DNA of 31,784 nucleotides from Gemmatimonadota bacterium (GCA_043735145.1 JAYTEN010000041.1:1-31784), one strand, 5' to 3'. Positions 1 through 14,368 are shown, counted from the first letter of the stretch. The notes: a model not told the origin generated them from the letters alone. Program-made: numbers and translations.

Positions 1-5
1 TTCCA

Positions 6-1193
6 TCAGATACGCTCCACGGAAAGGGCGACGGCGTTTCCGCCACCAAGGCAGAGAGTGGCGAGCCCGGTGGCCTTGTCTCGAGCCTGCAAAGCATACA
101 GCAGCGTGGTGAGAACGCGAGCGCCGCTGGCGCCGATGGGATGACCGAGGGCGACGGCGCCGCCATTCACGTTGACGCGCGACCAGTCCCAGCCCAGCGC
201 GCGGCCGTCGGCGAGGGCCTGCACGGCGAACGCTTCGTTCGCCTCGATGAGATCGTAATCGCCGATCGTCTTCCCTTCCTTCTGCATCAGGTTCTGCACC
301 GCGACGATCGGCGCGAAGAAGAGGTCCTTCGGCTCGCCGCCACCCGTCGCGTACCCGCTCACGCGCGCCAGCGGCTTCAGGCCGTGGGCCTGCGCATAGG
401 CGAGCGAGGTCACGACGAGCGCGCTGCCGCCGTCGTTGAGCCCGGGCGCATTGCCGGCGGTGACGCTGCCGTCCTTCACGAAGACGGGCTTCAGCTTCGC
501 GAGCGCTTCGAGGGTGGTGTCATGGCGCGGCGCCTCGTCCTTGTCCACGATCGTCGTGCCCTTCCGATCGGCGATCTCGACGGGCGCGATCTCATTCTTG
601 AAATGACACGCCTGCTGCGCCGCCGCCGCCTTCTGCTGGCTCTCGAGCGCGAACTGGTCCTGGTCGGCGCGCGAGATGCCGGCCTTCGTGGCCGTGTACT
701 CCGCGTGGTTGCCCATGTGACAGTCGCCGAACGAGCACCAGAGCCCGTCCATGATGACGCCGTCCTTCATTTCGGTGTTGCCGAGCTTCACGCCATTGCG
801 CATGCCGAACAGGTAATGGGGCGCGTTCGACATCGATTCCTGCCCGCCCGCGACGACGACGTTGACGTCGCCCGCCGCGATCGCCTGCGCCGCGAGCATC
901 ACGGCCTTGAGTCCCGAGCCGCACACCATGTTGATCGTGACCGCGGGCGTAGTGCCCGGGATGCCGGCCTTGATCGCGGCCTGGCGGCCGGGCGCCTGGC
1001 CCGCCCCGCCCTGCACCACGTGCCCCATGATCACGTCCTGCACGTCGCTCACCGAAATGCCGGCGCGCGCGATCGCGGCCCTGATCGCGACGGCGCCGAG
1101 GTCGGAGGCCTTCAGCGGCGCGAGCGCGCCCATGAACTTGCCGATGGGCGTGCGCGCGGCGCTGACGATGACGGCGGTGTTCTTCGGATCCAT
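6..1193 (-). CDS. Acetyl-CoA C-acetyltransferase (thiolase), 395 aa
   Basis: Thiolase motifs NMVCGSGL (catalytic Cys), [13 protein letters not shown] and CLGGG. Start moved to MDPKN (ATG 1193) behind a purine-rich AAAGGGGA. The TGA at 8-6 overlaps an ATG at 6-4 (TGATG), so a coupled downstream gene probably begins at the window edge. Confidence 0.95.
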
Positions 1194-1216
1194 TGGTTCT
1201 CGTATCCCCTTTGAGA

Positions 1217-1237
1217 GGGCGACCACAAGGGTCGCCC
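1217..1237. repeat. REP-like palindrome / hairpin between thrS and thiolase
   Basis: GGGCGACC-ACAAG-GGTCGCCC, a perfect 8-bp stem. The minus strand reads GTTGGGGCGACCCTTGTGGTCGCCC, resembling GTAG-tagged REPs. Confidence 0.6.
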
Positions 1238-1248
1238 CAACGTGTTCG

Positions 1249-1368
1249 TTATAGATCGAGTGCGCGCGTTATAGATCGAGTGCGCGCCTTATAGATCGAG
1301 TGCGCGCCTTATAGATCGAGTGTGCGCCTTATAGATCGAGTGTGCGCGTCATAGATCGAGGGTGCGTG
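1249..1368. repeat. 20-bp tandem repeat x6 overlapping the thrS stop codon
   Basis: ATAGATCGAG recurs at 1251, 1271, 1291, 1311, 1331 and 1351. The intervening 10-mers are near-identical (TGCGCGCGTT, TGCGCGCCTT x2, TGTGCGCCTT, TGTGCGCGTC). Confidence 0.98.
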
Positions 1369-3274
1369 ATGCGATCCGTTCCTTCAGGTCCGCGATGAAT
1401 GCATCCTGCTGAATGATGTTCTGCTTGGTTCCGGTTCCCCGCGTGCGGACGGCCACGGCGCCGGACTCGGCTTCGCGACCGCCGATGACCGCGAGGTACG
1501 GCACCTTCATCGTCTCGCCGTCGCGGATCTTGTAGTTCAGCGTCTGGTTGCGGTCGTCGAGGTTCGAGCGCACGCCCGCCGCGCGCAGCTTCTGGTGCAG
1601 CGCCTGCGCCGCCTCATTCTGCGCATCGGCGATCGGCAGCACCCGCACCTGCTCGGGAGAGATCCACAGCGGGAAGGCGCCGGCGAAGTGCTCGATCAAA
1701 ATTCCCAGGAAGCGCTCGAACGATCCGCTCACCGCGCGGTGGATGACGACGGGCCGGTGCTCGGCGTTGTCCTCGCCCACATAGATCAGGTTGAAGCGCT
1801 CGGGGGCGGCGTAGTCGAGCTGGATGGTGCCCAGCTGCCAGGTCCGGCCAATGGAGTCGGCGACATGGAAATCGATCTTGGGCCCGTAGAAGGCGCCGTC
1901 GCCCGGATTCAGCGTATACGGCAGGTCGAGCGATTCCAGCGCGGCCTTGAGGCCCGCCTCGGCGCGATCCCACATCGCGTCGTCGCCGATCCGCATCGCC
2001 GGGCGGGTGCCGAACTTCAGCGCCGGCTTCAGGCCGAAGGTGTTGTAGAAACCCACGATGAAATCGGCGAGCCGCTTCACCTCGGCGGCGATCTGGCTTT
2101 CCATCATGAAGATGTGGCAGTCGTCCATCGAGAACTGGCGCACGCGCGTGAGCCCCGACAGCGCGCCCGACAGCTCGTTGCGATGGAGGACGTCGAACGT
2201 CGCCATGCGCAGCGGCAGCTCGCGATACGAATGCTTGCCGTGCGAGTACATCAGGTAGTGCGACGGGCAGTTCATGGGCTTCAGCGAGAAGTCATGCTCG
2301 CCCGACTCGTTGTCGAGCACCATGAACATGTTCTCCCGGTACTTGCCCCAGTGCCCCGACTGCTCCCACAACCCCTTGTTGTACATGAGGGGCGTCTTCA
2401 CTTCCTGGTAGCCGTCGCGCTGGAGCTCCTGGAGATAGCCGTGCAGCTCGTTGACCATCGTGGTCCCGCGCGCCGTCCAGAAGGGCGCGCCTGGGGCCCA
2501 GTGGTGGAACATGAACAGGTCGAGCTCGCGGCCCAGCTTGCGATGGTCGCGCTTGCGCGCCTCCTCGAGCCGCGTGAGGTAGGCGTCGAGATCCTCTTTC
2601 TTGAACCAGGCGGTGCCGTAGATGCGCTGCAGCATCTGGTTCCGCTCGTCGCCGCGCCAGTAGGCGCCCGCGCCGTGCAGCAGCTTGAAGTGCTGGATGC
2701 GGCCGGTGGACGGCACGTGCGGGCCGCGGCAGAGATCGACGAAGGGGCCATCGGTGTAGACGGAGATGGTCTCGGTGTCGGGGATTTCCGACAGGCGCTC
2801 GAGCTTCAGCGGGTCGCCGGCGAAGCGCTGCTCGGCGTCGGGCCGGTTCACGACTTCGCGCACGAAGGGGAAGTCGGCCTTCACCACCTCGCGCATCTCG
2901 GCCTCGATTTTCTCGAGGTCCTCGGGCGTGAAGGGACGCGGCACGGCGAAGTCATAGTAGAAGCCGTCTTCGATAGGCGGGCCGAAGCCGATGCCGGCAT
3001 CGGGGAAGATGCGCCGCACGGCGGTGGCCAGCGCGTGCGCGGCCGAGTGGCGGAGGACGCCGAGGGCGTCGGCGTCGCGGTCGGTGAGGATAGCGAAGGG
3101 ACCCGACGCCTGGAGGGGCCGGTTCATCTCGACGATCTGGCCATCCAGGCGCGCGGCGAGCGCGGCCTTGGCCAGGCGCGGACCGATCGACTCGGCCACC
3201 TGCAACGGGGTCGTGCCGGGATCGACGCGCCGCTCGCTGCCGTCGGGGAGTGTCAGGACAAGCTGTTCGGCCAT
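1349..3274 (-). CDS. thrS: Threonine--tRNA ligase, 641 aa
   Basis: N-terminal TGS domain (LTLPDGS), editing motifs RHSAAH and DLCRGPHV, KPMNCP, GLTRVRQF, GAFYGPKID, HRAVSGSFERF and a C-terminal anticodon-binding domain. Start at MAEQL. Confidence 0.98.
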   Translation of the reverse strand: MAEQLVLTLPDGSERRVDPGTTPLQVAESIGPRLAKAALAARLDGQIVEMNRPLQASGPFAILTDRDADALGVLRHSAAHALATAVRRIFPDAGIGFGPPIEDGFYYDFAVPRPFTPEDLEKIEAEMREVVKADFPFVREVVNRPDAEQRFAGDPLKLERLSEIPDTETISVYTDGPFVDLCRGPHVPSTGRIQHFKLLHGAGAYWRGDERNQMLQRIYGTAWFKKEDLDAYLTRLEEARKRDHRKLGRELDLFMFHHWAPGAPFWTARGTTMVNELHGYLQELQRDGYQEVKTPLMYNKGLWEQSGHWGKYRENMFMVLDNESGEHDFSLKPMNCPSHYLMYSHGKHSYRELPLRMATFDVLHRNELSGALSGLTRVRQFSMDDCHIFMMESQIAAEVKRLADFIVGFYNTFGLKPALKFGTRPAMRIGDDAMWDRAEAGLKAALESLDLPYTLNPGDGAFYGPKIDFHVADSIGRTWQLGTIQLDYAAPERFNLIYVGEDNAEHRPVVIHRAVSGSFERFLGILIEHFAGAFPLWISPEQVRVLPIADAQNEAAQALHQKLRAAGVRSNLDDRNQTLNYKIRDGETMKVPYLAVIGGREAESGAVAVRTRGTGTKQNIIQQDAFIADLKERIASRTLDL

Positions 3275-3396
3275 GCCTCGAGCGGGAGCGCACCCAGGAC
3301 CGGGCGCACCTGCCGTCCATAGAGAAAGAAGAGAGCGACCAGAACCAGGATGAGGACAAAGGCGATGCCCCAACCCAGCAATTGCCGGGGTGTCAT
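3253..3396 (-). CDS. Small single-pass membrane protein (47 aa) overlapping the thrS start
   Basis: MTPRQLLGWGIAFVLILVLVALFFLYGRQVRPVLG...; one clear hydrophobic helix flanked by Arg; 22-nt overlap with thrS. Confidence 0.55.
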   Translation of the reverse strand: MTPRQLLGWGIAFVLILVLVALFFLYGRQVRPVLGALPLEAWPNSLS

Positions 3397-3528
3397 CCGC
3401 GCCTGATTGGGTGTTCCGCCGGTCACCGGAGGGCCCCGTCCGGATGGCGCAACTTGCGATGGGGCGTACGTTTCGCCACTGTACAAGGAATGTAGTCGGG
3501 GGCTTGCCCCGCTGCCACCGGAGACACC

Positions 3529-3993
3529 GTGTCACGCACCAGGAAAGGCCGCCGATTCGAGGTCGCGGACCTGCTGGCAACCGCCGCCGGGTCGATCGTG
3601 GGCGTCGCCCTCGGTTTTATCGCCGCCGGGAGCGTGGGCCGGATCAACCGCACCCGGTTGAAAAACGCGATGGGCCGGCTGACGCTGCGCGGCGCCGCGC
3701 CCAAGCGCTGGACGGAAGACGAAGCGGAGCGGCTGGAAGCACGGGTGCTCGACGCGCTGGCGCAGGACGTGGTGCTCGCGCGGCGTCCGATCCGGGTGTC
3801 GGTCCTCGGGATGGGCCTGGTCGAGCTCACCGGCTCGGTGCTGCACACGGCGGAAGTCGGCGTCGCCAGTGACGTGGTTCAGTCGGTGCCGGGGGTGGAG
3901 ACGGTATTGAATCACCTGGTCGTCGACGCCCCCAGCCGCCCCGCCCAACCCGGGACGCAGGGACCCAACGTGCCTCGCGCCGCCCGCGGCTGA
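3529..3993 (+). CDS. BON domain-containing protein with N-terminal membrane anchor
   Basis: Hydrophobic segment GSIVGVALGFIAAG, then a BON-like pattern (VLDALAQD...IRVSV..GLVELTGSV...VVQSVPGVETVLNHLVV). GGAG precedes the GTG start. Confidence 0.8.
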   Translation: MSRTRKGRRFEVADLLATAAGSIVGVALGFIAAGSVGRINRTRLKNAMGRLTLRGAAPKRWTEDEAERLEARVLDALAQDVVLARRPIRVSVLGMGLVELTGSVLHTAEVGVASDVVQSVPGVETVLNHLVVDAPSRPAQPGTQGPNVPRAARG

Positions 3994-4015
3994 GTGGTGC
4001 AAGGTGACGACCTGC

Positions 4016-4041
4016 GGCCCGCCTGGCGGGCCTTCTTTTTT
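4016..4041 (+). terminator. Intrinsic terminator after the BON gene
   Basis: GGCCCGC-CTG-GCGGGCC followed by TTCTTTTTT. Confidence 0.8.
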
Positions 4042-4114
4042 GGCTGGAATCCGGAAGCTGGAGTCGGGACGACTCCCGGCGGCACTTCGGCTTCGGCCGG
4101 GCAGGCAATCGTCT

Positions 4115-4135
4115 AGATTCCAGATTCCAGATTCC
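4115..4135. repeat. 7-bp tandem repeat (AGATTCC)x3 upstream of valS
   Basis: Directly visible; a complementary CTGGAATC lies at 4044-4051. Confidence 0.85.
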
Positions 4136-4140
4136 GGTCT

Positions 4141-4146
4141 TACACT
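4141..4146 (+). promoter_or_regulatory. -10-like hexamer TACACT 9 nt before the valS ATG (possible leaderless or near-leaderless mRNA)
   Basis: TANNNT immediately upstream of the start, with no Shine-Dalgarno. Confidence 0.45.
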
Positions 4147-4155
4147 CAGGCGCGC

Positions 4156-6849
4156 ATGAACGAGACAGAACTCAGTCCCCAGTATTCTGCGTCCGCGATC
4201 GAGCCCCCGCTCTACCAGGAGTGGCTGGCCCGCGGCCTCTTCACGCCCGACCCGTTGTCGGACCGCGACCCCTTCGTCATCGTGATCCCGCCACCTAACG
4301 TGACGGACAAGCTCCACGTGGGCCACGGGCTGAACAACACCGTGCAGGACGTGATCGTGCGCTTCGAGCGCATGCGGGGGCGCGACACGCTGTGGCTGCC
4401 GGGCACCGACCACGCCGGCATCGCGACCCAGAACGTGGTCGAGAAGCTGCTCGCGAAGGAAGGGAAGACGCGCTTCGACCTGGGCCGCGAGGCGTTCGTG
4501 AAGCGGGTCGAGGCGTACGTGGCCAAGACCGGGACCACGATCCTCGAGCAGCTCAAGGCCATCGGCGCGTCGTGCGACTGGACCCGCACCGCGTACACCC
4601 TCTCGCCGCACCTCTCGCGCGCAGTGCGCGAGGTGTTCGTCCGCCTCTGGGAGGAAGAGCTGATCTACCGCGGCCACCGGGTGATCCACTGGTGCCCGCG
4701 GTGCCTGACGAGCTTGTCGGACGAAGAGGCCGAGCACACTGAGCGCGACGGGCATCTCTATCATATCCGGTATCCGCTGGCCGACGGCTCGGGCTTCGTC
4801 ACCGTGGCGACCACGCGCCCCGAGACGCTGCTGGGCGACGTCGCCATCGCGGTGAGCCCCGAGGACGAGGCCAAGGCGAAGTACATCGGGAAGATGGTGC
4901 GGGTGCCCTTCGCCGACGTGGAGATCCCGATCATCGCCGACGAGGCGGTGGAGATGGGTTTCGGCACCGGCTTCCTCAAGATCACGCCGGCCCACGACCC
5001 GAACGACTTCGAGACCGGCAAGCGCCACCACCTGCCGATGCCGGTGATCCTGGCTCCCGATGCAACCCTGGCCGACGCGGCGCTCGAGGGGAAGGCCGGC
5101 GGCCGCGTGCCGCCCGAGCTGTTCGGCATGGATCGCTTCGAGGCGCGGCGCGTCATGGTCGAGCAACTCAAGCACCTGAAGCTGCTCGAGAAGGTCGAGC
5201 CGCACCGCCATGCCATCCGCCACTGCTATCGCTGCGATACCATCGTGGAGCCGCGGCTCAGCGACCAGTGGTTCGTGCGCACGAAGGGGTTCGCCGAGCG
5301 GGCGCTGAAGGCCCACCTGGACGGCAAGGTGCGCTTCATCCCCGAGCGGCGGGGCGAGGAGTTCAACCAGTGGCTGGAGAACATCCGCGACTGGAACATC
5401 TCGCGGCAGCTCTGGTGGGGGCACCGCATCCCGGTCTGGTACTGCGATGCCTGCAAGACGTCGAAGGCGTACCGCGAAGACCCGACGGCGTGCGACACCT
5501 GCGCCGGCCCGCTGCGCCAGGACGAGGACGTGCTCGATACCTGGTTCAGCAGCTGGCTGTGGCCGTTCTCGACCCTGGGCTGGCCCGACGACACGGCCGA
5601 CCTGCGGCGCTACTACCCGACCGACGTGCTGGTCACGGCGCCGGAGATCCTGTTCTTCTGGGTGGCGCGGATGATCTTCGCCGGGATGCACTTCCTGGGC
5701 GAGGTGCCGTTCCACACCGTGTACCTGCACGGCACGGTGCGCGACACCCAGCACCGCAAGATGTCCAAGTCGTTAGGTAACGGCATCGACCCGCTGGATG
5801 TGGTGCGGCTCTACGGCGCCGACGCGCTGCGCTTCACCGTGACCAACGGCCTCGCCGTGGGCACCGACATCATCCTCGACAACAACGACCTCGAGGCGAG
5901 CTTCGCGAGCGGGCGGAATTTCGCCAACAAGCTGTGGAATGTCGGGCGGCTGGTGCTCTCGCACCTTGCGGACGGGGGGACGGGGGGATGGGGGGCCGGG
6001 GGGTCTGGAATCGATGCCGAACGGCTGACGCTGGCCGACCGGTGGATACTGTCCAGGCTCGACCGGTGCGTGCGCGAGGCGACCGACCACATGGAGCGCT
6101 TCCGGCTGAACGATGCGACCGGGACGCCGTACCACTTCCTGTGGGACGACTTCGCCGACTGGTATCTCGAGGCGATCAAGCCGCGCCTCTATGGCGACGA
6201 GCCGGGCGGCGACGTGGCGCGCGCGGTGGCGGTGCAGTGCTTCGACACGGTGCTGCGGCTGCTGCACCCGATCATGCCGTTCATCACCGAGACCCTTTTC
6301 CGCCGGCTTCCCGGCAACACCGGCCGCACCATCGTCACCGCCCCATGGCCGGCGACCCGCGGCGCCGAGGATACGGCGACGGAAGCGGACTTCGCGTTCG
6401 TGCAGGCGCTGGTGGACGGCATCCGCGCCATCCGCGCCGACGCCAACGTGAAGCCGGGGCAGACGGTCGCTGCGTCAATCGCGGGGCTCACGCCGCGCGC
6501 GCGGGCCGCCATGGACGCCGAACGCGGCATGATCATGCGTCTCGCCAGGCTGTCGTCGCTCGACGAAGCCGAGCCGTCGGGGCCAGGCGGGTTCGCGGTG
6601 CTGCCGGGCGGCGCGTCGGTGTTTGTGGGCCTGGCCGGCGCCGTGGACGTGGCGAAAGAATGTGGCCGCCTGGGCGAGGAGCTCCAGCGGCTCGAGCGCC
6701 AACTCGAAGGGCTCACGTCCAAGCTTGCCAACGAGAATTTTCTGGCCAAGGCAAAACCGGAAGTCGTGGTTCAGGAGCGACAGAAGCAGACCGACTGGAC
6801 CGAGAAGGCGGGAACGTTGCGGGCGAAGCAGAAGGCGCTGGGATGCTGA
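4156..6849 (+). CDS. valS: Valine--tRNA ligase, 897 aa
   Basis: PPPNVT..LHVGH (HIGH), GTDHAGIATQ, ATTRPET, ITPAHDPND, WNISRQLWWGHRIP, DVLDTWFSS, KMSKSLGN and a C-terminal coiled-coil arm. Confidence 0.98.
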   Translation: MNETELSPQYSASAIEPPLYQEWLARGLFTPDPLSDRDPFVIVIPPPNVTDKLHVGHGLNNTVQDVIVRFERMRGRDTLWLPGTDHAGIATQNVVEKLLAKEGKTRFDLGREAFVKRVEAYVAKTGTTILEQLKAIGASCDWTRTAYTLSPHLSRAVREVFVRLWEEELIYRGHRVIHWCPRCLTSLSDEEAEHTERDGHLYHIRYPLADGSGFVTVATTRPETLLGDVAIAVSPEDEAKAKYIGKMVRVPFADVEIPIIADEAVEMGFGTGFLKITPAHDPNDFETGKRHHLPMPVILAPDATLADAALEGKAGGRVPPELFGMDRFEARRVMVEQLKHLKLLEKVEPHRHAIRHCYRCDTIVEPRLSDQWFVRTKGFAERALKAHLDGKVRFIPERRGEEFNQWLENIRDWNISRQLWWGHRIPVWYCDACKTSKAYREDPTACDTCAGPLRQDEDVLDTWFSSWLWPFSTLGWPDDTADLRRYYPTDVLVTAPEILFFWVARMIFAGMHFLGEVPFHTVYLHGTVRDTQHRKMSKSLGNGIDPLDVVRLYGADALRFTVTNGLAVGTDIILDNNDLEASFASGRNFANKLWNVGRLVLSHLADGGTGGWGAGGSGIDAERLTLADRWILSRLDRCVREATDHMERFRLNDATGTPYHFLWDDFADWYLEAIKPRLYGDEPGGDVARAVAVQCFDTVLRLLHPIMPFITETLFRRLPGNTGRTIVTAPWPATRGAEDTATEADFAFVQALVDGIRAIRADANVKPGQTVAASIAGLTPRARAAMDAERGMIMRLARLSSLDEAEPSGPGGFAVLPGGASVFVGLAGAVDVAKECGRLGEELQRLERQLEGLTSKLANENFLAKAKPEVVVQERQKQTDWTEKAGTLRAKQKALGC
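5972..6003 (+). repeat. (NN-GGGGGG)x4 in-frame tract in valS, a G-quadruplex-type motif
   Basis: G6-AC-G6-AT-G6-CC-G6 (5974-6003), encoding DGGTGGWGAGG. Confidence 0.9.
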
Positions 6850-8384
6850 GAAAGACCGTCGAAACGTCGAAACGTCGAAACGTCAAAGCGTGGACATGTT
6901 TTCGCTTCGACGCTTCGACGCTTCGACGCTTCGACGTGTTGCTACTTGCTCTCATCGCCGCGTGCGCCTCCACCGGCGATCCCCCGGGCGGGGCGCCGGA
7001 CCGCACCCCGCCCACCGTTCTGAGCGTGTCGCCGGAATCGGGCGCGGTGCTCGGCGCGCCGCCCGCGGAAGCCCGCATCACCTTCGACGAAGTCATCAGC
7101 GAGCGCACCGGCGGCCAGCCGCCCGACATCAGCGCCGCCGTGTTGCTCTCACCGACGGCCGAAGCGGTGCGGGTGCAATGGAAGCGCGACCACATCACCG
7201 TGCGCCCCAAATCGGGATTCCAGGCGGGACGCATCTATCACCTCGAGCTGCTGCCCGTCATCACCGACCTGCGCACCAATCGGATGCGCGCCGGACGGAC
7301 CATCGTCTTCTCGACCGGCCCCGCGATCCCCGACTCGCGCCTCGAGGGCACCGTGGTGGACTGGGTCGCCGGCCGCCCCGCGGCGCGCGCGCTGATCGAG
7401 GCGGTGCTGATGCCCGACTCGCTGGTCTACCGCACCCTCGCCGACTCGGGCGGGGTGTTCCGGCTCTCGCAGGTCCCGCCCGGACACTACCGCGTCTACG
7501 GCGTGATCGACCAGAACAACGACCGCCGGCGCGGCCTGCGCGAGATCTACGACTCGGCCGGCGTGGACCTCGACAGCGTGGCGCCGCCACTGGAGCTGTA
7601 CGCGTTCGCGCGCGACACCGTCGGCCCGCGGCTGCGGCAGACCGAAGTCGTCGACTCGATGACGCTGAAGCTGACCTTCGACCGTCCCCTCGATCCCACG
7701 CTGGTGCTCGACACCGCCATGGTGACGGTCGCGGCGCTCGAGGATTCCACCACGGCGCTTCCGCTGCTCGGCGTGTACACGCTGAAGGGTCTCGACTCGG
7801 CAAAAACCCGCGCCGACTCGATCCGCCGCGCCGCCGCCGACACGCTGCCGCGCGTGCCCGCCGACAGCCTGCGCCCGCCGGCCGGCAACACCAGTCGCGG
7901 CATTCCGCCCGACACGACGCGCCGCGTGCGGCCCGACACCACCCGCCGCGCGCCGGGGGATACCACCCGCGCCCGCGCCCGGGCGGGTGCGCCGGTGCGC
8001 CCGCCGGTCCGGACGCCGCAGGATTCCACCTGGCGCACCGTCCGGCCGCCGCTCGATTCCACCCGCGCCGACCGGATGATCGCACGCCATCCCGCGCCCA
8101 CCGACGTGCGCATCGTGCAGCTCGCGGAGCCGCTGGTGCCCGGCACCCGGTACGTGGTCTTCGTGCGCGGCGCGCGCAGCCTGTCGGGGAATGCCAAGGA
8201 TGGGCGCGGGCAGGTGCGGGCGCCGAGACCAGCAAGGCAGGCGCCAGGTCGCCCAGTCGCCAAGCCAGACAGCGCCGGCGTGACGCCACCCGACAGCACG
8301 CAGCGCGATTCCACGCCGATGCGCGCGGATAGCGCGCGCCCGGCCCCGCGCGACAGCACCACCCCGCCGGTTCGCCGCCCGTGA
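6843..8384 (+). CDS. Ig-like (Big_5-type) domain lipoprotein with a carboxypeptidase-regulatory-like domain and low-complexity D-S/T-rich C-terminal region, 513 aa
   Basis: Lipobox LIAA-C followed by ASTGDPPGGAPDRTPP, resembling Bacteroidota C-A-x-x-G-x-P-x-GG-x-x-D-x-x-PP Ig-like lipoproteins; VPPGHYRVYG..D.N.D. The ATG at 6843 overlaps the valS stop; an alternative in-frame GTG lies at 6936. Confidence 0.75.
   Translation: MLRKTVETSKRRNVKAWTCFRFDASTLRRFDVLLLALIAACASTGDPPGGAPDRTPPTVLSVSPESGAVLGAPPAEARITFDEVISERTGGQPPDISAAVLLSPTAEAVRVQWKRDHITVRPKSGFQAGRIYHLELLPVITDLRTNRMRAGRTIVFSTGPAIPDSRLEGTVVDWVAGRPAARALIEAVLMPDSLVYRTLADSGGVFRLSQVPPGHYRVYGVIDQNNDRRRGLREIYDSAGVDLDSVAPPLELYAFARDTVGPRLRQTEVVDSMTLKLTFDRPLDPTLVLDTAMVTVAALEDSTTALPLLGVYTLKGLDSAKTRADSIRRAAADTLPRVPADSLRPPAGNTSRGIPPDTTRRVRPDTTRRAPGDTTRARARAGAPVRPPVRTPQDSTWRTVRPPLDSTRADRMIARHPAPTDVRIVQLAEPLVPGTRYVVFVRGARSLSGNAKDGRGQVRAPRPARQAPGRPVAKPDSAGVTPPDSTQRDSTPMRADSARPAPRDSTTPPVRRP
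6857..6935. repeat. Palindromic 8-bp microsatellite (CGTCGAAA)x3-4 ... (GCTTCGAC)x4
   Basis: Left arm 6857-6888, central ACATGT 6894-6899, right arm 6904-6935; the arms are reverse complements with one mismatch per unit. Confidence 0.92.
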
Positions 8385-8410
8385 GCCCCGAGGCCGGGAC
8401 ACTGCCGACC

Positions 8411-8434
8411 TGGCGACTTGGCGACTTGGCGACT
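8411..8434. repeat. 8-bp tandem repeat (TGGCGACT)x3 directly before the selA start
   Basis: Directly visible; reverse-complement-like copies at 8244-8264 and 9070-9098. Confidence 0.9.
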
Positions 8435-8436
8435 TG

Positions 8437-9861
8437 ATGGACCCCCGCCGCGCGCTCCCGTCGGTGGATTCGCTCCTCCGCTCCCCCGCGATCGCGGCGT
8501 TAGGCGCGGCATCGGGGCGCGAGGCGCTGGTGCGCGCGATCCGCGGCACCCTCGCAGCGGTCCGCGCCACGCCGGGGATGCCGGCGCCGGCCGACGGGCA
8601 GTGGGCCCCGCTGATTTCGGCGCACCTCGCGGGCGCCGAGACGCCGACGCTGCGGCGGGTCGTCAACGCCACCGGGGTGGTGTTGCACACCAACCTCGGC
8701 CGGGCGCCCCTGGCGCGCAAAGCGCTCGATGCCATCGGCGAGGCCGCGGCCAACTACAGCACCCTCGAGTACGACGTCGCCAGGGGCGCCCGCGGCAGCC
8801 GCCATGTGCATTGCGCCGACCTGCTGACGGCATTGACCGGCGCGCCGGATGCAATGGTCGTGAACAACGCGGCGTCGGCGCTGCTCCTCGTGCTCGCGGC
8901 GGCGGCCGACGGCGGCCGCACCATCGTGTCCCGCGGCGAGCTGATCGAGATCGGCGGCGGGTTCCGCATTCCGGAGATCATGGAGCGGAGCGGGACGACG
9001 CTGGTCGAGGTGGGGACGACCAACAGAACTCGCGTGGGCGACTATGAACGGGCGATCGGCAAGCAGCCGCCAGGTCGCCAGGTCGCCAAGTCGCCCAGCC
9101 AGCGAACCTCGAGCGCCGTACCGCCATACCGCCGTACCGCCCTGCTCAAGGTGCACCGCTCCAACTTCAGGATCGAAGGCTTCACCGCGGAGGCCTCGCT
9201 CGAGGAGCTGGTGGCGCTGGGCAGGAAGAAGAAAGTGCCGGTGCTCTACGACCTCGGCGGCGGGCTGATGTTCGATCTCGACGTGCCGGGGCTGTCCGGA
9301 GAACCGACCCTTCCCGATTCGGCGCGCAGCGGCCCGACCGCCGTCGTCGCGTCGGGCGACAAGCTCCTCGGCGGACCGCAGGCCGGCATCATCGTCGGGA
9401 CCGCGAAGTTCGTCGCCGCGTGCCGCGCGCACCCGCTGGCGCGCGCGGCGCGCGCCGACAAGCTCACCCTCGCGGCGCTGTCGGCCACGCTTCAGCTCTA
9501 CCGCGATCCGGCCCGACGCGCGTCAATCCCGGTCATCGGCATGCTGACCATCCCGCTCCCGGAGCTGGAACAGCGCGCCGCCGTGCTGGCCGCCGCGCTG
9601 CCCGCCGCCGCGCGGGCCACCGTCGTGCCGACCCGCGCGGCGGTGGGCGGCGGCGCCTTCCCCGGCGTGGAGCTCGAGAGCCGCGGCGTCGCGCTCGATC
9701 CCGGGAACGTCAGCGCGAGCACCCTGGCCGCGCGGCTGCGCGCGCACCCGGTGCCGGTGGTGGGCGTGGTGCACAAGGGCCGCGTGGTGCTCGACGTCCG
9801 GGCGCTGCTGCACGGCGATGACGCCGTCATCGCCGACGCCGTCGCGGGCGCTCTGGCATGA
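8437..9861 (+). CDS. selA: L-seryl-tRNA(Sec) selenium transferase (SelA family, PLP-dependent)
   Basis: VVNATGVVLHTNLGRAPL, VVNNAASA, SRGELIEIGGGFRIPEIM, VEVGTTNRT, KVHRSNF and SGDKLLGGPQAG (PLP lysine). Confidence 0.93.
   Translation: MDPRRALPSVDSLLRSPAIAALGAASGREALVRAIRGTLAAVRATPGMPAPADGQWAPLISAHLAGAETPTLRRVVNATGVVLHTNLGRAPLARKALDAIGEAAANYSTLEYDVARGARGSRHVHCADLLTALTGAPDAMVVNNAASALLLVLAAAADGGRTIVSRGELIEIGGGFRIPEIMERSGTTLVEVGTTNRTRVGDYERAIGKQPPGRQVAKSPSQRTSSAVPPYRRTALLKVHRSNFRIEGFTAEASLEELVALGRKKKVPVLYDLGGGLMFDLDVPGLSGEPTLPDSARSGPTAVVASGDKLLGGPQAGIIVGTAKFVAACRAHPLARAARADKLTLAALSATLQLYRDPARRASIPVIGMLTIPLPELEQRAAVLAAALPAAARATVVPTRAAVGGGAFPGVELESRGVALDPGNVSASTLAARLRAHPVPVVGVVHKGRVVLDVRALLHGDDAVIADAVAGALA
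9070..9141 (+). repeat. Two 8-bp microsatellites inserted in frame in selA
   Basis: CCAGGTCG x2 plus CCAAGTCG (9070-9093), and GCCGTACC/GCCATACC/GCCGTACC (9115-9138). Confidence 0.9.
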
Positions 9862-10421
9862 GCGCGCCCGCGACGGCGCGCGGCGCCGTCTTCCTCGACC
9901 GCGACGGCACCATCATCGCGGACCCCGGCTACCTGCACGACCCCGCTGCGGTCGCGCTGCTGCCCGGCGCCGCCGAAGGGCTCGCCGCCCTGTCGCGCGC
10001 GCAGTGGCCGCTCGTGATCGTGTCGAACCAGTCGGGCGTCGCGCGCGGCATCTACGGCGCCGAGGCTTTCACCTCCACGACGGCGCGGCTCGAGGAGCTC
10101 CTCGCCGGCTACGGCGTCCGCATCCTCGCCTCCTACATGTGCCCCCATCATCCCGACGTCGACGGCCCCTGCGAGTGCCGCAAACCCGGCGTGAAGCTGT
10201 TCCGCCAGGCGGCGCGCGAGCATCGCCTCGACCTCGGCGCCTCCTGGTTCGTCGGCGATCGCTGGCGCGATGTGGAACCGGCCCTCACCCTGGGCGCCCG
10301 CGGCGTGCTGCTCGCCAACGACCCCCTCGCCGCCGACGCCCAGGAGGCCGCCCGGCACAACATCCGGGGCGTCAGCGACCTCCGTGCCGCCGCTGCCCTG
10401 ATCGGCGCCGATCCCCGCTGA
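9858..10421 (+). CDS. gmhB: HAD-IIIA phosphatase, D-glycero-D-manno-heptose 1,7-bisphosphate phosphatase-like
   Basis: FLDRDGTI, VSNQSGVARG, Zn-binding CPHHP...CECRKP and GDRWRD; ATGA overlap with selA. Substrate specificity is not provable from sequence. Confidence 0.85.
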   Translation: MSAPATARGAVFLDRDGTIIADPGYLHDPAAVALLPGAAEGLAALSRAQWPLVIVSNQSGVARGIYGAEAFTSTTARLEELLAGYGVRILASYMCPHHPDVDGPCECRKPGVKLFRQAAREHRLDLGASWFVGDRWRDVEPALTLGARGVLLANDPLAADAQEAARHNIRGVSDLRAAAALIGADPR

Positions 10422-10464
10422 CCTGCCACGGTGACGGGGATCACAGGCGCGGGCCATCGCTCGC

Positions 10465-10497
10465 TTGAACGCCCGGCACCGGCAGGGCATATTGCCC
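10465..10497 (+). promoter_or_regulatory. Sigma70-like promoter with an overlapping palindrome
   Basis: TTGAAC (10465-10470)-N17-CATATT (10488-10493); the inverted repeat GGGCA-TAT-TGCCC (10485-10497) overlaps the -10. Confidence 0.45.
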
Positions 10498-10553
10498 ATA
10501 CCCCCAAACGCATCCCGCTTCTATCCGGTCCACGTCCGCGGAGGTTGGTCCGT

Positions 10554-11915
10554 ATGACCCATCGATTCACCACCGGCTCGGTGAGCGTCTTCGCCCTCGC
10601 CCTGCTGTGCCTGGCACCGCGCGCGGGCGTCGCGCAGAACAACTACACCCAGCAGATGCAGGGCTACATGGCGCAGTACGCGCAGTCCGCGCAGTCGCGC
10701 GGCTACTCGCCCGTCACGCCCATGGTCACCGGCAACCTGAACCAGGGCGCGAACACCTCGCATAACTTCCCCCTGACGGCCGGCCGCAATTACGTCATCA
10801 TCGGCGTGTGCGACCGCGACTGCACCGACGTCGACCTGCGCCTCTACGACGCGTCGGGCAATACGATCGCCTCCGATGTCGCGGTGGACGATCATCCGAC
10901 GCTCCAGTTCACCGCGGGCATGTCGGGCAACTTCCGGCTCCAGGTCGAGATGGCGACCTGTTCGACCAACCCCTGCTATTACGGCGTGCAGCTCTTCGGT
11001 GGCGCGATGGGCGGCGGCAACAGCGGCGTCGCGCTCGCTCCGCAGCCGCAGCCGATGGGACAGCCGCAGCCGATGGCGATCAGCGCGCCCACGGCGATGG
11101 GCGTCATCGCCGCCAACCAGCAGGTCACCGGAAACCTCACCGCGATGGACGGCCGCTGGGACGGCAAACCCGCCCAGACGTGGCAGTTTCAGTGCCAGCC
11201 CGGCCAGGCGTTCCAGATGGACGTGCTTTCGACGTGGGATAACTACGCCATCGTCTTCGATCCGATGGGCACGCCTGTCGCCCACGACGACGACGGCGGA
11301 CCGGAAGGCCTGAACGCGCGCATCAGCTACACCTGCGCGATGGCGGGGATGTACCGCCTCGCGGTGACGACCTATACCAGCAGCACCACGCCCGGCACCT
11401 ACACCCTCCAGGTGCAGGCGATGGCCCCCGTCGCGCTCAACCAGCCGATGCCGATGAACCAGCCGCAGGCGCTGCCCACGGCGCAGCCGATGCAGCTGCC
11501 GGTCCAGCAGAGCGCGCCCGGCGCGACGATGCCGTCGCCCGCGCCGATCAGCCTGCCGCTCACCGGCAGCATCCCGGCGCCCGGCCAGATCGGCCAGATC
11601 CAGATAGGGACCAACGTGCAGGGCCGTCTCGAGACCGGCGACCAGCGCATGAACGACGGGACCTTCGCCGACGTCTGGCAGTTCTCGGGCACGGCCGGGC
11701 AGCACATCATCATCGAGCTGCGGTCGGAGGAGTTCGACACCTACGTCCAGCTCCTCGATGCCGCCGGCAACCGGCTGGCCGAGGATGACGACTCGCTGGG
11801 CGACCTCGATTCGAAGGTGGAGATCACGCTGCCTTCGAGCGGGGGCTTCCAGATCGTCGTGAACAACTTCGGCGAGGATCGCCGGGCCGGCATCTATACC
11901 CTGACGCTGCGCTAG
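10554..11915 (+). CDS. Secreted protein with a Cys-containing N-terminal beta-domain and two PPC (pre-peptidase C-terminal-like) domains, 453 aa
   Basis: GGAGG at 10540-10544 before ATG 10554; signal peptide ending AGVA-Q; PPC-like patterns (DNYAIVFDPMG..VAHDDDGG..GLNARISY; DTYVQLLDAAGNRLAEDDDSLGDLDSKVEITLP); Gln/Pro/Met linkers. Confidence 0.75.
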   Translation: MTHRFTTGSVSVFALALLCLAPRAGVAQNNYTQQMQGYMAQYAQSAQSRGYSPVTPMVTGNLNQGANTSHNFPLTAGRNYVIIGVCDRDCTDVDLRLYDASGNTIASDVAVDDHPTLQFTAGMSGNFRLQVEMATCSTNPCYYGVQLFGGAMGGGNSGVALAPQPQPMGQPQPMAISAPTAMGVIAANQQVTGNLTAMDGRWDGKPAQTWQFQCQPGQAFQMDVLSTWDNYAIVFDPMGTPVAHDDDGGPEGLNARISYTCAMAGMYRLAVTTYTSSTTPGTYTLQVQAMAPVALNQPMPMNQPQALPTAQPMQLPVQQSAPGATMPSPAPISLPLTGSIPAPGQIGQIQIGTNVQGRLETGDQRMNDGTFADVWQFSGTAGQHIIIELRSEEFDTYVQLLDAAGNRLAEDDDSLGDLDSKVEITLPSSGGFQIVVNNFGEDRRAGIYTLTLR

Positions 11916-11978
11916 GCTGCTTAACGACCGGCTGAGGAAAGCAGGCGGCTGAGCCTCAGGCAGGGATCAGCGGGAACC

Positions 11979-12010
11979 AGGCGGCGGGGATTTTCCCTGC
12001 CGCCTTTTTT
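11979..12010 (+). terminator. Intrinsic terminator inside a larger nested hairpin
   Basis: AGGCGGCGGGGA-TTTT-CCCTGCCGCCT followed by TTTTT. Confidence 0.75.
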
Positions 12011-12077
12011 CCAGCCCCCTGCCTGCAACTGCTCCGTCTGCTTTCCTCCGCCTGTCTTTTCAGGATATGTTGGGTGC

Positions 12078-12752
12078 GTGCCCATAGTCCAGATCGCCGT
12101 TCTCGCCTCAGGCCGGGGGTCCAATCTCCAGGCGCTGATCGATGCGCTTCCCGCGGGCGCGCCCGGGCGTGTCGCGCTGGTGGTGTCCAATCGCGAGGAC
12201 GCACCGGTGCTGGAACGCGCCCGCGAGCAGCACATCGCCGCCGCGACCATCGCGCGGGACGGCGCCGATGCCGATACGCTCATGGCGCACCTGCGCGCCC
12301 ACGCGATCGGCCTCGTGGTGCTGGCGGGTTACCTCAAGCGCGTCCCTGACGCCGTCGTGGCGGCGTACCGCGGCCGCGTCCTCAACATCCACCCGGCGCT
12401 GCTGCCCGCCTTCGGCGGAAGCGGGATGTACGGGCGCCGCGTGCACGAGGCGGTCCTCGCCAGCGGCGCGCGCCTCAGCGGCGCGACCGTCCACGTGGTG
12501 GACGAGCAGTACGACCACGGCCCCATCATCGCGCAGTGGCCGGTGCCGGTCCGCGCCGGCGACACGCCCGAGAGCCTCGCCGCGCGGGTGCTTGCCGTCG
12601 AGCACCGGCTGCTGCCGGCCGCGGTGCGCGCGGTGTGTGCCCGGATGGATCGATTCGCCGAGGTGCCCCGTCCCCTCGCCGCGAACCACGACTGCTTCGT
12701 GCTGTGCAACGTACCCGAACCCGACCTCGCCGATGCCCTCGTCTCGACATAA
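12078..12752 (+). CDS. purN: Phosphoribosylglycinamide formyltransferase
   Basis: AVLASGRGSNLQAL, VVLAGY, LNIHPALLPAFGG.GMYG..VH, SGATVHVVDEQYDHGPII; adjacent to purH. Confidence 0.96.
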   Translation: MPIVQIAVLASGRGSNLQALIDALPAGAPGRVALVVSNREDAPVLERAREQHIAAATIARDGADADTLMAHLRAHAIGLVVLAGYLKRVPDAVVAAYRGRVLNIHPALLPAFGGSGMYGRRVHEAVLASGARLSGATVHVVDEQYDHGPIIAQWPVPVRAGDTPESLAARVLAVEHRLLPAAVRAVCARMDRFAEVPRPLAANHDCFVLCNVPEPDLADALVST

Positions 12753-12761
12753 CGCCGCCTT

Positions 12762-12789
12762 CCCCACTCCCCCGCGTCCCCACCTCCCC
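12762..12789 (-). repeat. Four C4-5 tracts at about 8-bp period between purN and purH (G-quadruplex motif on the minus strand)
   Basis: CCCC-ACT-CCCCC-GCGT-CCCC-ACCT-CCCC. Confidence 0.65.
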
Positions 12790-12809
12790 ACTATTGCGGA
12801 GCCCCAGTA

Positions 12810-14336
12810 ATGCCGCGCGCACTCATCTCGGTATCCGACAAGCGTGGGGCGATCGAGTTCGCCTCCGGACTCGCCCAGCTCGGCTGGGAAATCATTTCCA
12901 CCGGCGGCACCGCGGCGGCGCTCGAGAAGGGCGGCGTGCCGGTCACGCTGGTCGAGAAGATCACCGGCTTCGCCGAAATGATGGACGGGCGAGTGAAGAC
13001 GCTGCACCCCGCCGTGCACGGCGGCATCCTCGCGCGCCGCGCGGTGCCGGGCGACCTCAAGGCCCTCGCCGACCAGGGCTACGCACCGATCGACCTGGTG
13101 GCGGTGAATCTCTATCCCTTCCGCGAAACGATCGCCCGTCCCGATGTCAGCATCGAGGAGGCGATCGAGCAGATCGACATCGGCGGGCCGTCGATGCTCC
13201 GCTCGGCGGCGAAGAATCACGACGCCGTCACGGTGGTCGCCGATCCGATGGATTATCGCCGCGTGATCGAGGCGATGCGCCACGGCGGCGTGAGCGCCGC
13301 GCTGCGGCGCGAGCTGTCGGCCAAGGCCTTCACGCATACCGCGGCCTACGACGGCGCCATCGCCGCGTACCTCTCGGGCGGTGCACCGGGCGACCTGCCG
13401 CCGACGCTCGTCGTCGTGCTCGAGCGGGTGCAGACGCTCCGTTACGGCGAAAACCCGCACCAGCCGGCCGCGTTCTACACGACGGGCGAGCCCGGCGGCT
13501 TGTCGGCCCTGACGCAGCTGGGCGGCAAGGAGCTGAGCTTCAACAACCTGCTCGACGTGGACGCCGCCCTCACCGCGGTCAGCCCCTTCGAGCGCGAAGT
13601 CGCGTGCGTGATCATCAAGCACACCACGCCCTGCGGCATCGCCCTGTCGATGAATCCCGTGGAGTCCTACCGCCTGGCGCTCGCGTGCGATCCCGTCTCG
13701 GCCTTCGGGTCGGTGGTGGGCTTCAACACCATCGTCACCGCGGAAGCAGCGCGCGCGATGACCGAGCTCTTCATCGAGGTCGTGGTCGCGCCGCGCTTCC
13801 ACCCCGAGGCGGTCGAGATCCTGTCGGCGAAGAAGAACCTGCGCATTGTCGAGGTCCCGCGCGCCGACGACCGGCTCGACTTCAAGCGGGTGCGCAGCGG
13901 ATTCCTGGTGCAGGAGCGGCTCCAGTTCGATCCCGATGAGCGCAACTGGAAGATCCCGACGAAGCGCCGGCCCGACGAGAAGGAAATCACCGACCTGCGC
14001 TTTGCGTGGGCCGCGGTCGGTTCGGTCAAGTCGAACGCGATCCTGCTCGCCCGCGGCTGCGCGGCGATCGGCATCGGCGCCGGCCAGATGAGCCGGGTGG
14101 ACAGCTCGATGCTCGCCGTCCACAAGGCGAAGGCCGCGGGGCACGAGACGCGCGGCGCCGTCCTCGCCAGCGACGCTTTCTTCCCCTTCCGCGATGGCGT
14201 GGATGCCGCGGCGCGCGCGGGCATCACGGCCATCGTACAGCCCGGCGGGTCGGTGCGGGACGAGGAAGTCATCAAGGCGGCGGATGAGCATGGCATGGCA
14301 ATGGTGATGACTGGAGTTCGGCAATTCAGGCACTAA
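12810..14336 (+). CDS. purH: Bifunctional AICAR transformylase / IMP cyclohydrolase
   Basis: ALISVSDK, STGGTA, GRVKTLHP, NLYPF, IDIGGPSM, LRYGENPHQ, KHTTPCG, GAGQMSRVDS, ASDAFFPFRD, QPGGSVRD and RQFRH. Confidence 0.98.
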   Translation: MPRALISVSDKRGAIEFASGLAQLGWEIISTGGTAAALEKGGVPVTLVEKITGFAEMMDGRVKTLHPAVHGGILARRAVPGDLKALADQGYAPIDLVAVNLYPFRETIARPDVSIEEAIEQIDIGGPSMLRSAAKNHDAVTVVADPMDYRRVIEAMRHGGVSAALRRELSAKAFTHTAAYDGAIAAYLSGGAPGDLPPTLVVVLERVQTLRYGENPHQPAAFYTTGEPGGLSALTQLGGKELSFNNLLDVDAALTAVSPFEREVACVIIKHTTPCGIALSMNPVESYRLALACDPVSAFGSVVGFNTIVTAEAARAMTELFIEVVVAPRFHPEAVEILSAKKNLRIVEVPRADDRLDFKRVRSGFLVQERLQFDPDERNWKIPTKRRPDEKEITDLRFAWAAVGSVKSNAILLARGCAAIGIGAGQMSRVDSSMLAVHKAKAAGHETRGAVLASDAFFPFRDGVDAAARAGITAIVQPGGSVRDEEVIKAADEHGMAMVMTGVRQFRH

Positions 14337-14341
14337 CAAGA

Positions 14342-14368
14342 GGAGAGCGGAGAGCGGAGAGCGGAGAG
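14342..14368. repeat. 7-bp tandem repeat (GGAGAGC)x3.9 after purH
   Basis: Directly visible; a degenerate complementary C/T-rich arm at about 14441-14467 lies inside the next signal peptide. Confidence 0.88.

What the first reader, a model, noticed from the sequence alone, without database searches (positions are those of the whole stretch)
6843..8384. Lipoprotein saturated with Bacteroidota-type O-glycosylation sequons (21 sites)
Seen: 23 D-S/D-T dipeptides, of which 21 are followed by A/I/L/V/M/T (e.g. DSL, DSA, DSV, DTV, DSM, DTA, DST, DSI, DTL, DTT x3). Fourteen of them pack into the low-complexity C-terminal half. Established: D-(S/T)-(A/I/L/V/M/T) is the sequon of the general protein O-glycosylation system of Bacteroidota, which acts on exported proteins, and Gemmatimonadota are placed near the FCB group. 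Inference: this is a mucin-like, heavily glycosylated surface lipoprotein. I know of no description of such a system in this lineage.
Basis: partly seen in the sequence, partly recalled or inferred. Interest (0 to 1): 0.8.

Follow-up and report, generated by a model that had tools for sequence, protein, structure and literature searches.

The report
Sequon-packed core lipoprotein of Gemmatimonadota
This gene encodes a lipoprotein found in nearly every Gemmatimonadota genome. It carries 21 copies of the three-residue tag that Bacteroidota use to attach sugars to exported proteins. The same tag is over-represented in this genome's exported proteins only, so a Bacteroidota-type protein O-glycosylation system probably works in this phylum too, although no sugar has been shown.

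Summary
ORF 6843-8384 (513 aa) holds 23 D-S/T dipeptides. Twenty-one are D-(S/T)-(A/I/L/V/M/T), against 2.6 expected (0 of 20,000 shuffles reach it).

- **The protein.** It is a real lipoprotein with a conserved lipobox, three beta-sandwich domains, a disordered loop and a disordered tail. It is single-copy in 118 of 121 Gemmatimonadota genomes and always lies between valS and a selA-like gene.
- **Homologues.** Across 120 homologues the sequon Asp is invariant, Ser and Thr swap freely, and the third residue stays within A/L/V/T/I/M (plus S and G). In the unalignable loop and tail the motif is about 13-fold over-represented.
- **Genome-wide.** The motif is 2.24-fold enriched in exported proteins and 0.97 in cytoplasmic ones. 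Blind position scans recover exactly D, then S>T, then L/T/V/I/M/A. A Ralstonia control shows no such contrast.

The glycosylation reading is therefore well supported by sequence, but no glycan or transferase has been shown. "Surface" and "mucin-like" are not supported: by analogy with Bacteroidota, a periplasmic location is more likely. A YfhO-like GT-C enzyme found in all 51 sampled genomes of the phylum, encoded after rpoN, is a candidate transferase.

This scan has already noted the same sequon bias in other Gemmatimonadota genomes. No paper in the searched library pairs this phylum with O-glycosylation.

The parts
6843..8384 (+). Gene for the 513-aa lipoprotein (P0001). The ATG overlaps the valS stop (ATGCTGA).
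   Evidence: Homologues mostly begin ML(K/R)R at the same position. 120 homologues have E <= 3e-93.
6843..6965 (+). Signal peptide with lipobox LIAA-C (Cys41). Its n-region is lengthened by two 8-bp microsatellites.
   Evidence: The lipobox and the mature start C-A-S-x-GDPPGG are conserved across homologues. Repeats lie at 6857-6884 and 6903-6936.
7017..7322 (+). Big_5 (SbsA-type Ig-like) domain, residues 59-160. It has no sequon.
   Evidence: Pfam PF13205, E 2.5e-14. AF2 pLDDT is mostly above 90. Sequon O/E is 0.25 across 120 homologues.
7323..7610 (+). CarboxypepD_reg-like beta-sandwich, residues 161-256, with 3 canonical sequons (192, 237, 244) plus DSG201.
   Evidence: Pfam PF13620, 33.7 bits against a 32.3 cut-off. 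Asp192, 201 and 237 are invariant in 118-120 of 120 homologues.
7611..7781 (+). First half of a third beta-sandwich, residues 257-313, with sequons at 258, 271, 290 and 301 at strand ends or loops.
   Evidence: AF2 secondary structure. These Asp are invariant in 119-120 of 120 homologues, while S/T and the third residue vary.
7782..7865 (+). Inserted helix, residues 314-341, with sequons at 318, 325, 333 and 341. Part of it is a degenerate 24-bp x3 repeat.
7866..8063 (+). Disordered Pro/Arg-rich loop, residues 342-407, with 5 sequons (357, 365, 373, 394, 405).
   Evidence: pLDDT is below 50. The region is 0-96 aa long and unalignable in homologues, yet sequon O/E is 13.5.
8064..8222 (+). Second half of the third beta-sandwich, residues 408-460. 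It has no sequon.
8223..8381 (+). Disordered Pro/Ala/Arg-rich C-terminal tail, residues 461-513, with 5 sequons (476, 484, 489, 496, 504).
   Evidence: pLDDT is below 50. The tail is 0-101 aa long in homologues, with sequon O/E 13.4, and 96% of homologues have at least one.
4156..6849 (+). valS, the conserved upstream neighbour.
   Evidence: valS lies directly upstream in 76 of 80 related loci.
8434..9861 (+). selA-like gene, the conserved downstream neighbour, followed by a gmhB-like gene at 9858-10421.
   Evidence: It lies downstream in 69 of 80 related loci; only 64 of the 80 have more than 2.5 kb of sequence downstream of the family gene.

Best explanation
The gene encodes a lipoprotein that is conserved across the phylum and translationally coupled to valS. 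It has three beta-sandwich domains plus a disordered loop and tail. After Sec export and lipidation, its 21 D-(S/T)-(A/I/L/V/M/T) motifs are most likely read on the periplasmic side by a general protein O-glycosylation system of the Bacteroidota type. That would make it the most densely glycosylated protein of this cell. The sugars would sit at turns of domains 2 and 3. They would also turn the Pro/Ala/Arg-rich loop and tail into stiff, hydrated, protease-resistant bottle-brush segments, while the N-terminal Big_5 domain stays bare, perhaps as a binding face. Shown here: the gene, the lipobox, the domains, and selection on the motif in this family, this genome and this phylum. Inferred: that the motif is glycosylated, the location of the protein, and the role of the sugars. 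The function of the protein itself is unknown; its universal presence suggests a core envelope role.
For: (1) There are 21 sequons against 2.6 expected. Density is 4.44 per 100 aa, the highest in the genome; the next is 3.49, in an LptA-like protein.
(2) In 120 homologues, 15 alignment columns keep D in 87-120 of the 120 sequences (at least 102 in 13 of the 15). S and T swap freely (for example 28/91, 53/59). The third residue is A/I/L/V/M/T in 86.5% of cases, with S and G making up most of the rest, and P, D, E, Q, F, R almost excluded.
(3) The loop and tail have no alignable sequence and vary from 0 to about 100 aa, yet hold the motif at 13 times their local expectation.
(4) Genome-wide, in a set that does not include this protein, exported proteins show 1002 observed against 447.7 expected (2.24) and cytoplasmic ones 0.97. 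Controls E[ST]x, N[ST]x, the reversed motif and D[ST][other] lie at 0.7-1.1.
(5) Blind scans single out D at position 1, S (2.83) and T (1.68) at position 2, and L, T, V, I, M, A (1.8-3.0; S 1.28) at position 3. All other residues are below 1, and there is no flanking motif. This matches the experimentally determined Bacteroidota motif and its slight preference for Ser (PMC12871550).
(6) Ralstonia (67% GC) run through the same pipeline gives exported 1.19 against cytoplasmic 1.14.
(7) 80 loci from other Gemmatimonadota give exported 2.2 against cytoplasmic 1.0. Another class of the phylum gives 1.56 against 1.05.
(8) The family is present in 118 of 121 genomes of the phylum, and the lipobox is conserved.
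Against: No glycan, glycopeptide or transferase has been demonstrated, and the Bacteroidota transferase is unknown, so homology of the machinery cannot be tested. My Bacteroidota sample (250 kb of plasmids) showed no overall enrichment: exported 1.05 against cytoplasmic 0.91, with only a third-position bias of 47% against 35% expected. Enrichment as such is therefore not calibrated against the known system. Gene calling and signal-peptide classes are home-made heuristics. Asp-Ser/Thr also forms Asx and ST turns, and 8 of the sites sit at turns of folded domains. A few sites arose by tandem duplication and are not independent.
Confidence: 0.7

Rival explanations
1. The tripeptide is under selection in exported proteins, but for recognition by something other than a glycosyltransferase. 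Candidates are another periplasmic modification, a protease or chaperone docking site, or a cation-binding motif.
For: All evidence is for selection on the motif. None bears on the chemistry of what happens at it.
Against: All three positions coincide with the experimentally defined Bacteroidota O-glycosylation motif, including Ser over Thr, weak S at position 3 and exclusion of P/D/E/Q (against PMC12871550 and PMC8729774). The phylum belongs to the same FCB superphylum (established knowledge). The motif is not defined for any other system in the reviews I read (PMC12871550, PMC8729774) or that I know of.
Confidence: 0.12
2. There is no modification. D-S/T followed by a hydrophobic residue is a structural turn or strand-start motif that is common in beta-rich exported proteins, and its count is inflated here by low-complexity composition.
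For: The eight sites in folded domains lie at hairpin turns, loops or strand ends. Exported proteins are beta-rich.
Against: The strongest excess (13-fold) is in disordered, unalignable segments where no fold constrains sequence. Exported Ralstonia proteins show no excess over cytoplasmic ones. E and N at position 1 show no excess. The Ig-like Big_5 domain of the same protein has none.
Confidence: 0.08
3. The C-terminal sequon arrays are a neutral by-product of the microsatellite and tandem-repeat activity seen throughout this genome.
For: A degenerate 24-bp x3 repeat covers sites 325-341. The DTTRR units at 357-373 look duplicated. 8-bp microsatellites flank and invade the gene.
Against: This explains at most about 6 sites. 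Sites 333, 341, 405, 484, 489 and 496 are kept in 87-114 of 120 homologues. Tails with unrelated sequence in other genera carry the same motif.
Confidence: 0.03

Closest known systems
General protein O-glycosylation system of Bacteroidota (B. fragilis LFG system; glycoproteomes of T. forsythia, P. gingivalis, F. johnsoniae; reviewed in PMC12871550)
   Same: The three-residue acceptor D-(S/T)-(A/I/L/V/M/T, weaker S/G) is identical. It is restricted to non-cytoplasmic proteins, shows a slight Ser preference, and LPS-transport proteins with large periplasmic domains are among the richest carriers (LptD and LptF there, an LptA-like protein here).
   Different: The phylum differs, and nothing has been shown biochemically. 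Known Bacteroidota glycoproteins average about 2 sites (257 sites in 145 P. gingivalis proteins, PMC8729774), whereas this protein has 21. The excess in exported proteins here (2.2-fold) is far stronger than in my small Bacteroidota plasmid sample (1.05). No metG-wzx-GT locus of the LFG type was identified.
Sequon arrays on LptC/LptA, LptD and SprA of other Gemmatimonadota
   Same: The same motif occurs in the same phylum, in disordered tails or linkers of exported envelope proteins. In this genome too, the LptA-like protein beside rpoN has 19 sequons.
   Different: Those are other protein families in other genomes. This family is a phylum-universal lipoprotein of unknown function next to valS, and it has the highest density in its genome.
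SbsA-type Ig-like (Big_5) / CarboxypepD_reg multi-domain envelope proteins
   Same: The domain folds match (Pfam). Foldseek finds only strings of Ig-like domains, such as SbsC, pilins and the LdtMt2 N-domains.
   Different: No functional homologue was found. The lipid anchor, the domain order and the glycosylation-motif loop and tail are specific to the Gemmatimonadota family.
Sequon-dense N-glycoprotein lipoproteins of Campylobacterota (PglB system)
   Same: The logic is the same: an exported lipoprotein packed with short acceptor motifs for a general periplasmic glycosylation system.
   Different: That system is N-linked (D/E-x-N-x-S/T), its transferase (PglB, STT3 family) is known, and no STT3 is present in this genome.

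Membership tests
Substrate of a Bacteroidota-type general O-glycosylation system | Acceptor motif D-(S/T)-(A/I/L/V/M/T) | tested here: met
   21 canonical sites, plus DSG201 of the extended motif. The motif is conserved in homologues.
Substrate of a Bacteroidota-type general O-glycosylation system | The protein leaves the cytoplasm | tested here: met
   Signal peptide with a lipobox Cys41, conserved across 120 homologues.
Substrate of a Bacteroidota-type general O-glycosylation system | The organism shows the motif excess in non-cytoplasmic proteins, the criterion used in PMC12871550 Fig. 2A | tested here: met
   Exported 2.24 against cytoplasmic 0.97. Position scans recover the motif de novo.
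Substrate of a Bacteroidota-type general O-glycosylation system | Glycan on the motif Ser/Thr shown by mass spectrometry | not testable with these tools
   The organism is uncultured and no proteomic data exist.
Substrate of a Bacteroidota-type general O-glycosylation system | Homologous transferase and LFG-like biosynthetic locus | tested here: inconclusive
   The Bacteroidota transferase is unidentified. This genome has a Wzx-like flippase, one Wzy_C protein, no STT3, and an rpoN-linked GT2/GT4/YfhO-like cluster. No LFG reference sequences were available to compare.
Bacterial lipoprotein | Lipobox [LVI][ASTVI][GAS]C after a basic n-region and a hydrophobic h-region | tested here: met
   The sequence reads ...RRFDVLLLALIAAC-ASTGD, and the equivalent Cys is conserved. 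The Lgt/Lsp genes were not searched.
Pfam Big_5 (PF13205) and CarboxypepD_reg (PF13620) | Score above the curated gathering threshold | tested here: met
   54.3 bits against 23.6, and 33.7 bits against 32.3.
Mucin-like domain | Pro/Thr/Ser-rich repeats in which a large share of residues are glycosylated Ser/Thr | tested here: not met
   S+T is 15% of the protein. The loop and tail are Pro/Ala/Arg-rich, with one sequon every 5-20 residues.
Surface-exposed lipoprotein | An export signal or other evidence of surface exposure | not tested
   Nothing in the sequence addresses it. By analogy with P. gingivalis, glycosylated proteins are mainly periplasmic.

The most novel reading that the evidence does not exclude
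The YfhO-like GT-C membrane enzyme encoded at the end of the lptB-rpoN-GT2-GT4 cluster is the protein O-glycosyltransferase that reads D-S/T-x. It was present in 51 of 51 sampled Gemmatimonadota genomes, and its Pfam family is also found in Bacteroides thetaiotaomicron. It would use a polyprenyl-phosphate sugar made by the adjacent membrane GT2. If so, this phylum would give a handle on the still-unidentified Bacteroidota transferase, and this lipoprotein, with 21 sites, would be an ideal reporter substrate.
Probability: 0.2. Interest if true: 0.85.

Novelty: new member of a known kind. Interest (0 to 1): 0.62.

Why it matters
The D-(S/T)-hydrophobic O-glycosylation system is described as unique to Bacteroidota, is reported as essential there, and its transferase is still unknown. 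A second phylum with a stronger sequence signature would date the system to the common ancestor of the FCB group. It would also allow comparative genomics to narrow down the missing enzymes. This universal, single-copy lipoprotein has 21 sites and bare control domains in the same chain, so it is a natural test substrate for mass spectrometry in cultured Gemmatimonas.

Tried and rejected
- **Positive control.** 250 kb of Bacteroidota plasmids (Haliscomenobacter, Runella, Emticicia) gave no overall enrichment: exported 1.05, with only a third-position bias. Plasmid and surface-enzyme genes are a poor sample, and chromosomal Bacteroidota DNA could not be reached, so the effect size is not calibrated. 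A tblastn of a TonB-dependent receptor against plasmids, meant to find Bacteroidota records, returned only Proteobacteria.
- **Membrane topology test.** Comparing periplasmic loops with cytoplasmic parts used only 7 two-TM proteins, so it is inconclusive.
- **Fold searches.** PDB and AFDB clusters returned only generic Ig-like strings, with no functional clue. NCBIfam gave no hit.
- **Transferase candidates.**
  - The PMT_2-like GT-C proteins on contig C54 sit beside type IV pilin genes, so they look pilin-specific rather than general.
  - The Wzy_C/O-antigen-ligase homologue was found in only 19 of 51 genomes with a single-protein query, and waaL is dispensable for O-glycosylation in P. gingivalis.
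  - No STT3 was found, in a genome that is 83% complete.
- **Literature.** Searches for an identified Bacteroidota transferase found none.
- **Extended motif.** No preference beyond the three residues was seen.
- **Stop codons.** The '1 TGA' flags inside many homologue matches were judged to be read-through of the low-complexity tail model past the stop codon. This was not checked.
Full report
**Observation.** The ORF at 6843-8384 (+) translates to 513 residues. It contains 40 Asp, and 23 are followed by Ser or Thr. Twenty-one of those are followed by A/I/L/V/M/T; the exceptions are DSR164 and DSG201. Composition predicts 6.1 and 2.6 respectively, and none of 20,000 shuffles reaches either count. 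Taking each structural segment's own composition still gives 2.64 expected (P = 1e-12). Every one of the 14 Asp in the helix, loop and tail is a sequon Asp.

**What the protein is.**
- Pfam finds Big_5 (residues 53-158, E 2.5e-14) and CarboxypepD_reg (167-218, just above the cut-off). NCBIfam finds nothing.
- An AlphaFold2 model built on a 27-sequence alignment has mean pLDDT 77 and pTM 0.61. It shows three beta-sandwiches.
  - The third sandwich (264-312 plus 421-459) is interrupted by a helix (314-334) and a disordered loop (about 342-405).
  - The chain ends in a disordered tail (460-513).
- Structure searches return only generic strings of Ig-like domains, so the protein's own function remains unknown.
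- The start is an ATG that overlaps the valS stop. Homologues mostly begin ML(K/R)R at the same place.
- All complete homologues listed share a lipobox Cys followed by A-S-x-GDPPGGPPD. It is therefore a genuine lipoprotein.

**Distribution.**
- A protein search gave 505 relatives; the named hits are Gemmatimonadales MAGs.
- A scan of species-representative genomes returned 80 loci, 79 titled Gemmatimonadota or one of its lineages and one only 'bacterium'. valS lies directly upstream in 76 of them, and a selA-like gene follows in 69 of the 80 (only 64 have more than 2.5 kb of sequence downstream of the family gene). A gmhB-like gene follows in many of them.
- A profile search found the family, usually in single copy, in 118 of 121 genomes sampled across the phylum, covering 12 families and other classes.
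- It is a core gene of the phylum.

- They do not. Across 120 homologues the mean is 18.6 D[ST] and 15.1 sequons, against 4.4 and 1.9 expected.
- The third residue is A/I/L/V/M/T in 81% of cases against a 44% background. P, D, E, Q and F are at 0.02-0.07 of expectation and R is at 0.23.
- Fifteen alignment columns carry D[ST] in at least half of the sequences. In these columns:
  - Asp is kept in 87-120 of the 120 sequences (at least 102 in 13 of the 15).
  - Ser and Thr interchange freely (28/91, 82/37, 53/59 and so on).
  - The third residue wanders among L, V, A, T, I, M, with some S and G.
- The loop and tail vary from 0 to about 100 residues, cannot be aligned between genera, and are Pro/Ala/Arg-rich. 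Even so, they hold the motif at 13 times their own compositional expectation, in 89% and 96% of homologues respectively.
- The N-terminal Big_5 domain has essentially none (O/E 0.25).
- The motif is therefore the conserved feature, not the surrounding sequence.

**Is it a property of the organism?** I called genes in the 2.46-Mb genome (83% complete) by third-position GC. I classed them with simple lipobox, signal-peptide and hydrophobicity rules. My gene caller happened to drop the gene under study, so the set is independent of it.

| Set | Exported (observed / expected) | Exported O/E | Cytoplasmic O/E |
|---|---|---|---|
| This genome | 1002 / 447.7 | 2.24 | 0.97 |
| 80 other Gemmatimonadota loci, family mostly removed | 310 / 139.7 | 2.2 | 1.0 |
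| 386 kb of another class of the phylum | 129 / 82.6 | 1.56 | 1.05 |
| Ralstonia megaplasmid, 350 kb, 67% GC (negative control) | 47 / 39.4 | 1.19 | 1.14 |
| Bacteroidota plasmids, 250 kb | 54 / 51.2 | 1.05 | 0.91 |

- In this genome, lipoproteins alone reach 2.89.
- The controls E[ST]x, N[ST]x, the reversed tripeptide and D[ST][other] stay at 0.7-1.1 in the exported and cytoplasmic classes.
- Blind scans of each position, comparing exported with cytoplasmic proteins, single out the following:
  - only D at position 1;
  - only S (2.83) and T (1.68) at position 2;
  - L, T, V, I, M, A (1.8-3.0), and weakly S (1.28), at position 3;
  - every other residue at position 3 below 1.
- There is no flanking preference.
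- This is the experimentally defined Bacteroidota motif, including its slight Ser preference and rare S/G third residues (PMC12871550; PMC8729774).
- Within this genome the protein has the highest sequon density, 4.44 per 100 aa. The exported median is 0.49, and the runner-up is an LptA-like protein at 3.49.

**Caveats.**
- The Bacteroidota sample I could reach showed no overall excess. It showed only a third-position bias, 47% against 35% expected. I therefore cannot calibrate the size of the effect against the known system.
[quoted passage not shown] The passages I read do not name Gemmatimonadota.
- A topology test on membrane proteins was too small to use.
- Gene calls and localisation classes are heuristic.
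- No glycan has been shown.

**Machinery.** The Bacteroidota transferase, the core-glycan flippase and the ligase are still unidentified, so homology of the machinery cannot be tested. This genome contains the following candidates.

| Candidate | Where | What was seen |
|---|---|---|
| STT3 | none found | no match in an 83%-complete genome |
| Wzx-like flippase | contig C281 | one match above the family cut-off |
| Wzy_C protein | contig C306 | homologues in only 19 of 51 phylum genomes with this query |
| Three GT-C-like proteins | contig C54 | they sit beside type IV pilin genes |
| GT2/GT4/YfhO-like cluster | contig C269, after rpoN | see below |

- On contig C269 the gene order is a kdsD-like gene, the LptA-like protein (19 sequons), LptB and rpoN.
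- These are followed by a membrane GT2, a GT4, an LPG_synthase_TM-like protein, a Big_2/beta-propeller lipoprotein and another GT4.
- A GDP-mannose-dehydratase-like gene lies on the opposite strand within this stretch.
- The cluster ends with a YfhO-like GT-C that is cut by the contig end.
- The YfhO-like protein was found in 51 of 51 sampled genomes of the phylum. The Pfam family also matches in Bacteroides thetaiotaomicron.
- It is the best candidate transferase by distribution alone, and this is inference.
- Earlier notes of this scan described the same rpoN-linked cluster and the same sequon bias in other Gemmatimonadota genomes. I reproduced both here on this genome.

**Verdict.** The sequence evidence that these tripeptides are selected acceptor sites of a Bacteroidota-type O-glycosylation system is strong and internally controlled. 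I put it at 0.7 pending biochemistry. "Surface" and "mucin-like" are not supported. In P. gingivalis the system acts mainly on periplasm-facing proteins and spares abundant surface proteins, and the disordered parts here are Pro/Ala/Arg-rich with spaced sites. The finding is a new phylum and an extreme substrate for a known kind of system. No paper in the searched library pairs Gemmatimonadota with O-glycosylation.

Noticed in passing
window 6857-6936: Two perfect 8-bp microsatellites (CGTCGAAA x3.5 and CGCTTCGA x4.2) are partly complementary to each other. They lie inside the coding sequence for the signal-peptide n-region and lengthen it to 41 residues, against about 18-25 in several homologues.
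   Followed up: partly
window 8406-8436: An 8-bp repeat (CGACTTGG x3.9) lies in the short spacer between this gene's stop and the selA-like start. It belongs to the same kind of junction microsatellite seen elsewhere in the window.
   Followed up: no
G000 contig C269 (L099) 1-15600: The gene order is a kdsD-like gene, an LptA-like protein (574 aa, 19 sequons), LptB and rpoN. rpoN is followed directly by a membrane GT2, a GT4, an LPG_synthase_TM-like protein, a Big_2/beta-propeller lipoprotein, a GT4 and a YfhO-like GT-C. The GT-C is present in 51 of 51 sampled genomes of the phylum.
   Followed up: partly
G000 contig C54 600-9500: Two type IV pilin genes (N-terminus FTLIELLIV) lie next to three large GT-C-like membrane proteins with weak PMT_2, STT3 and LA_3751 similarity. 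This looks like a pilin glycosylation island distinct from the general system.
   Followed up: partly
window 4156-10421 and loci L015-L094: The order valS, lipoprotein, selA-like, gmhB-like is conserved in essentially all related loci that have room for it. The lipoprotein start overlaps the valS stop, which suggests translational coupling to a housekeeping gene.
   Followed up: yes
Genome-search hits (e.g. G041, G068, G001): About a quarter of the homologue matches are flagged '1 TGA' inside the match. This is probably the low-complexity tail model reading past the true stop codon. It was not inspected, although the neighbouring gene is selA-like.
   Followed up: no
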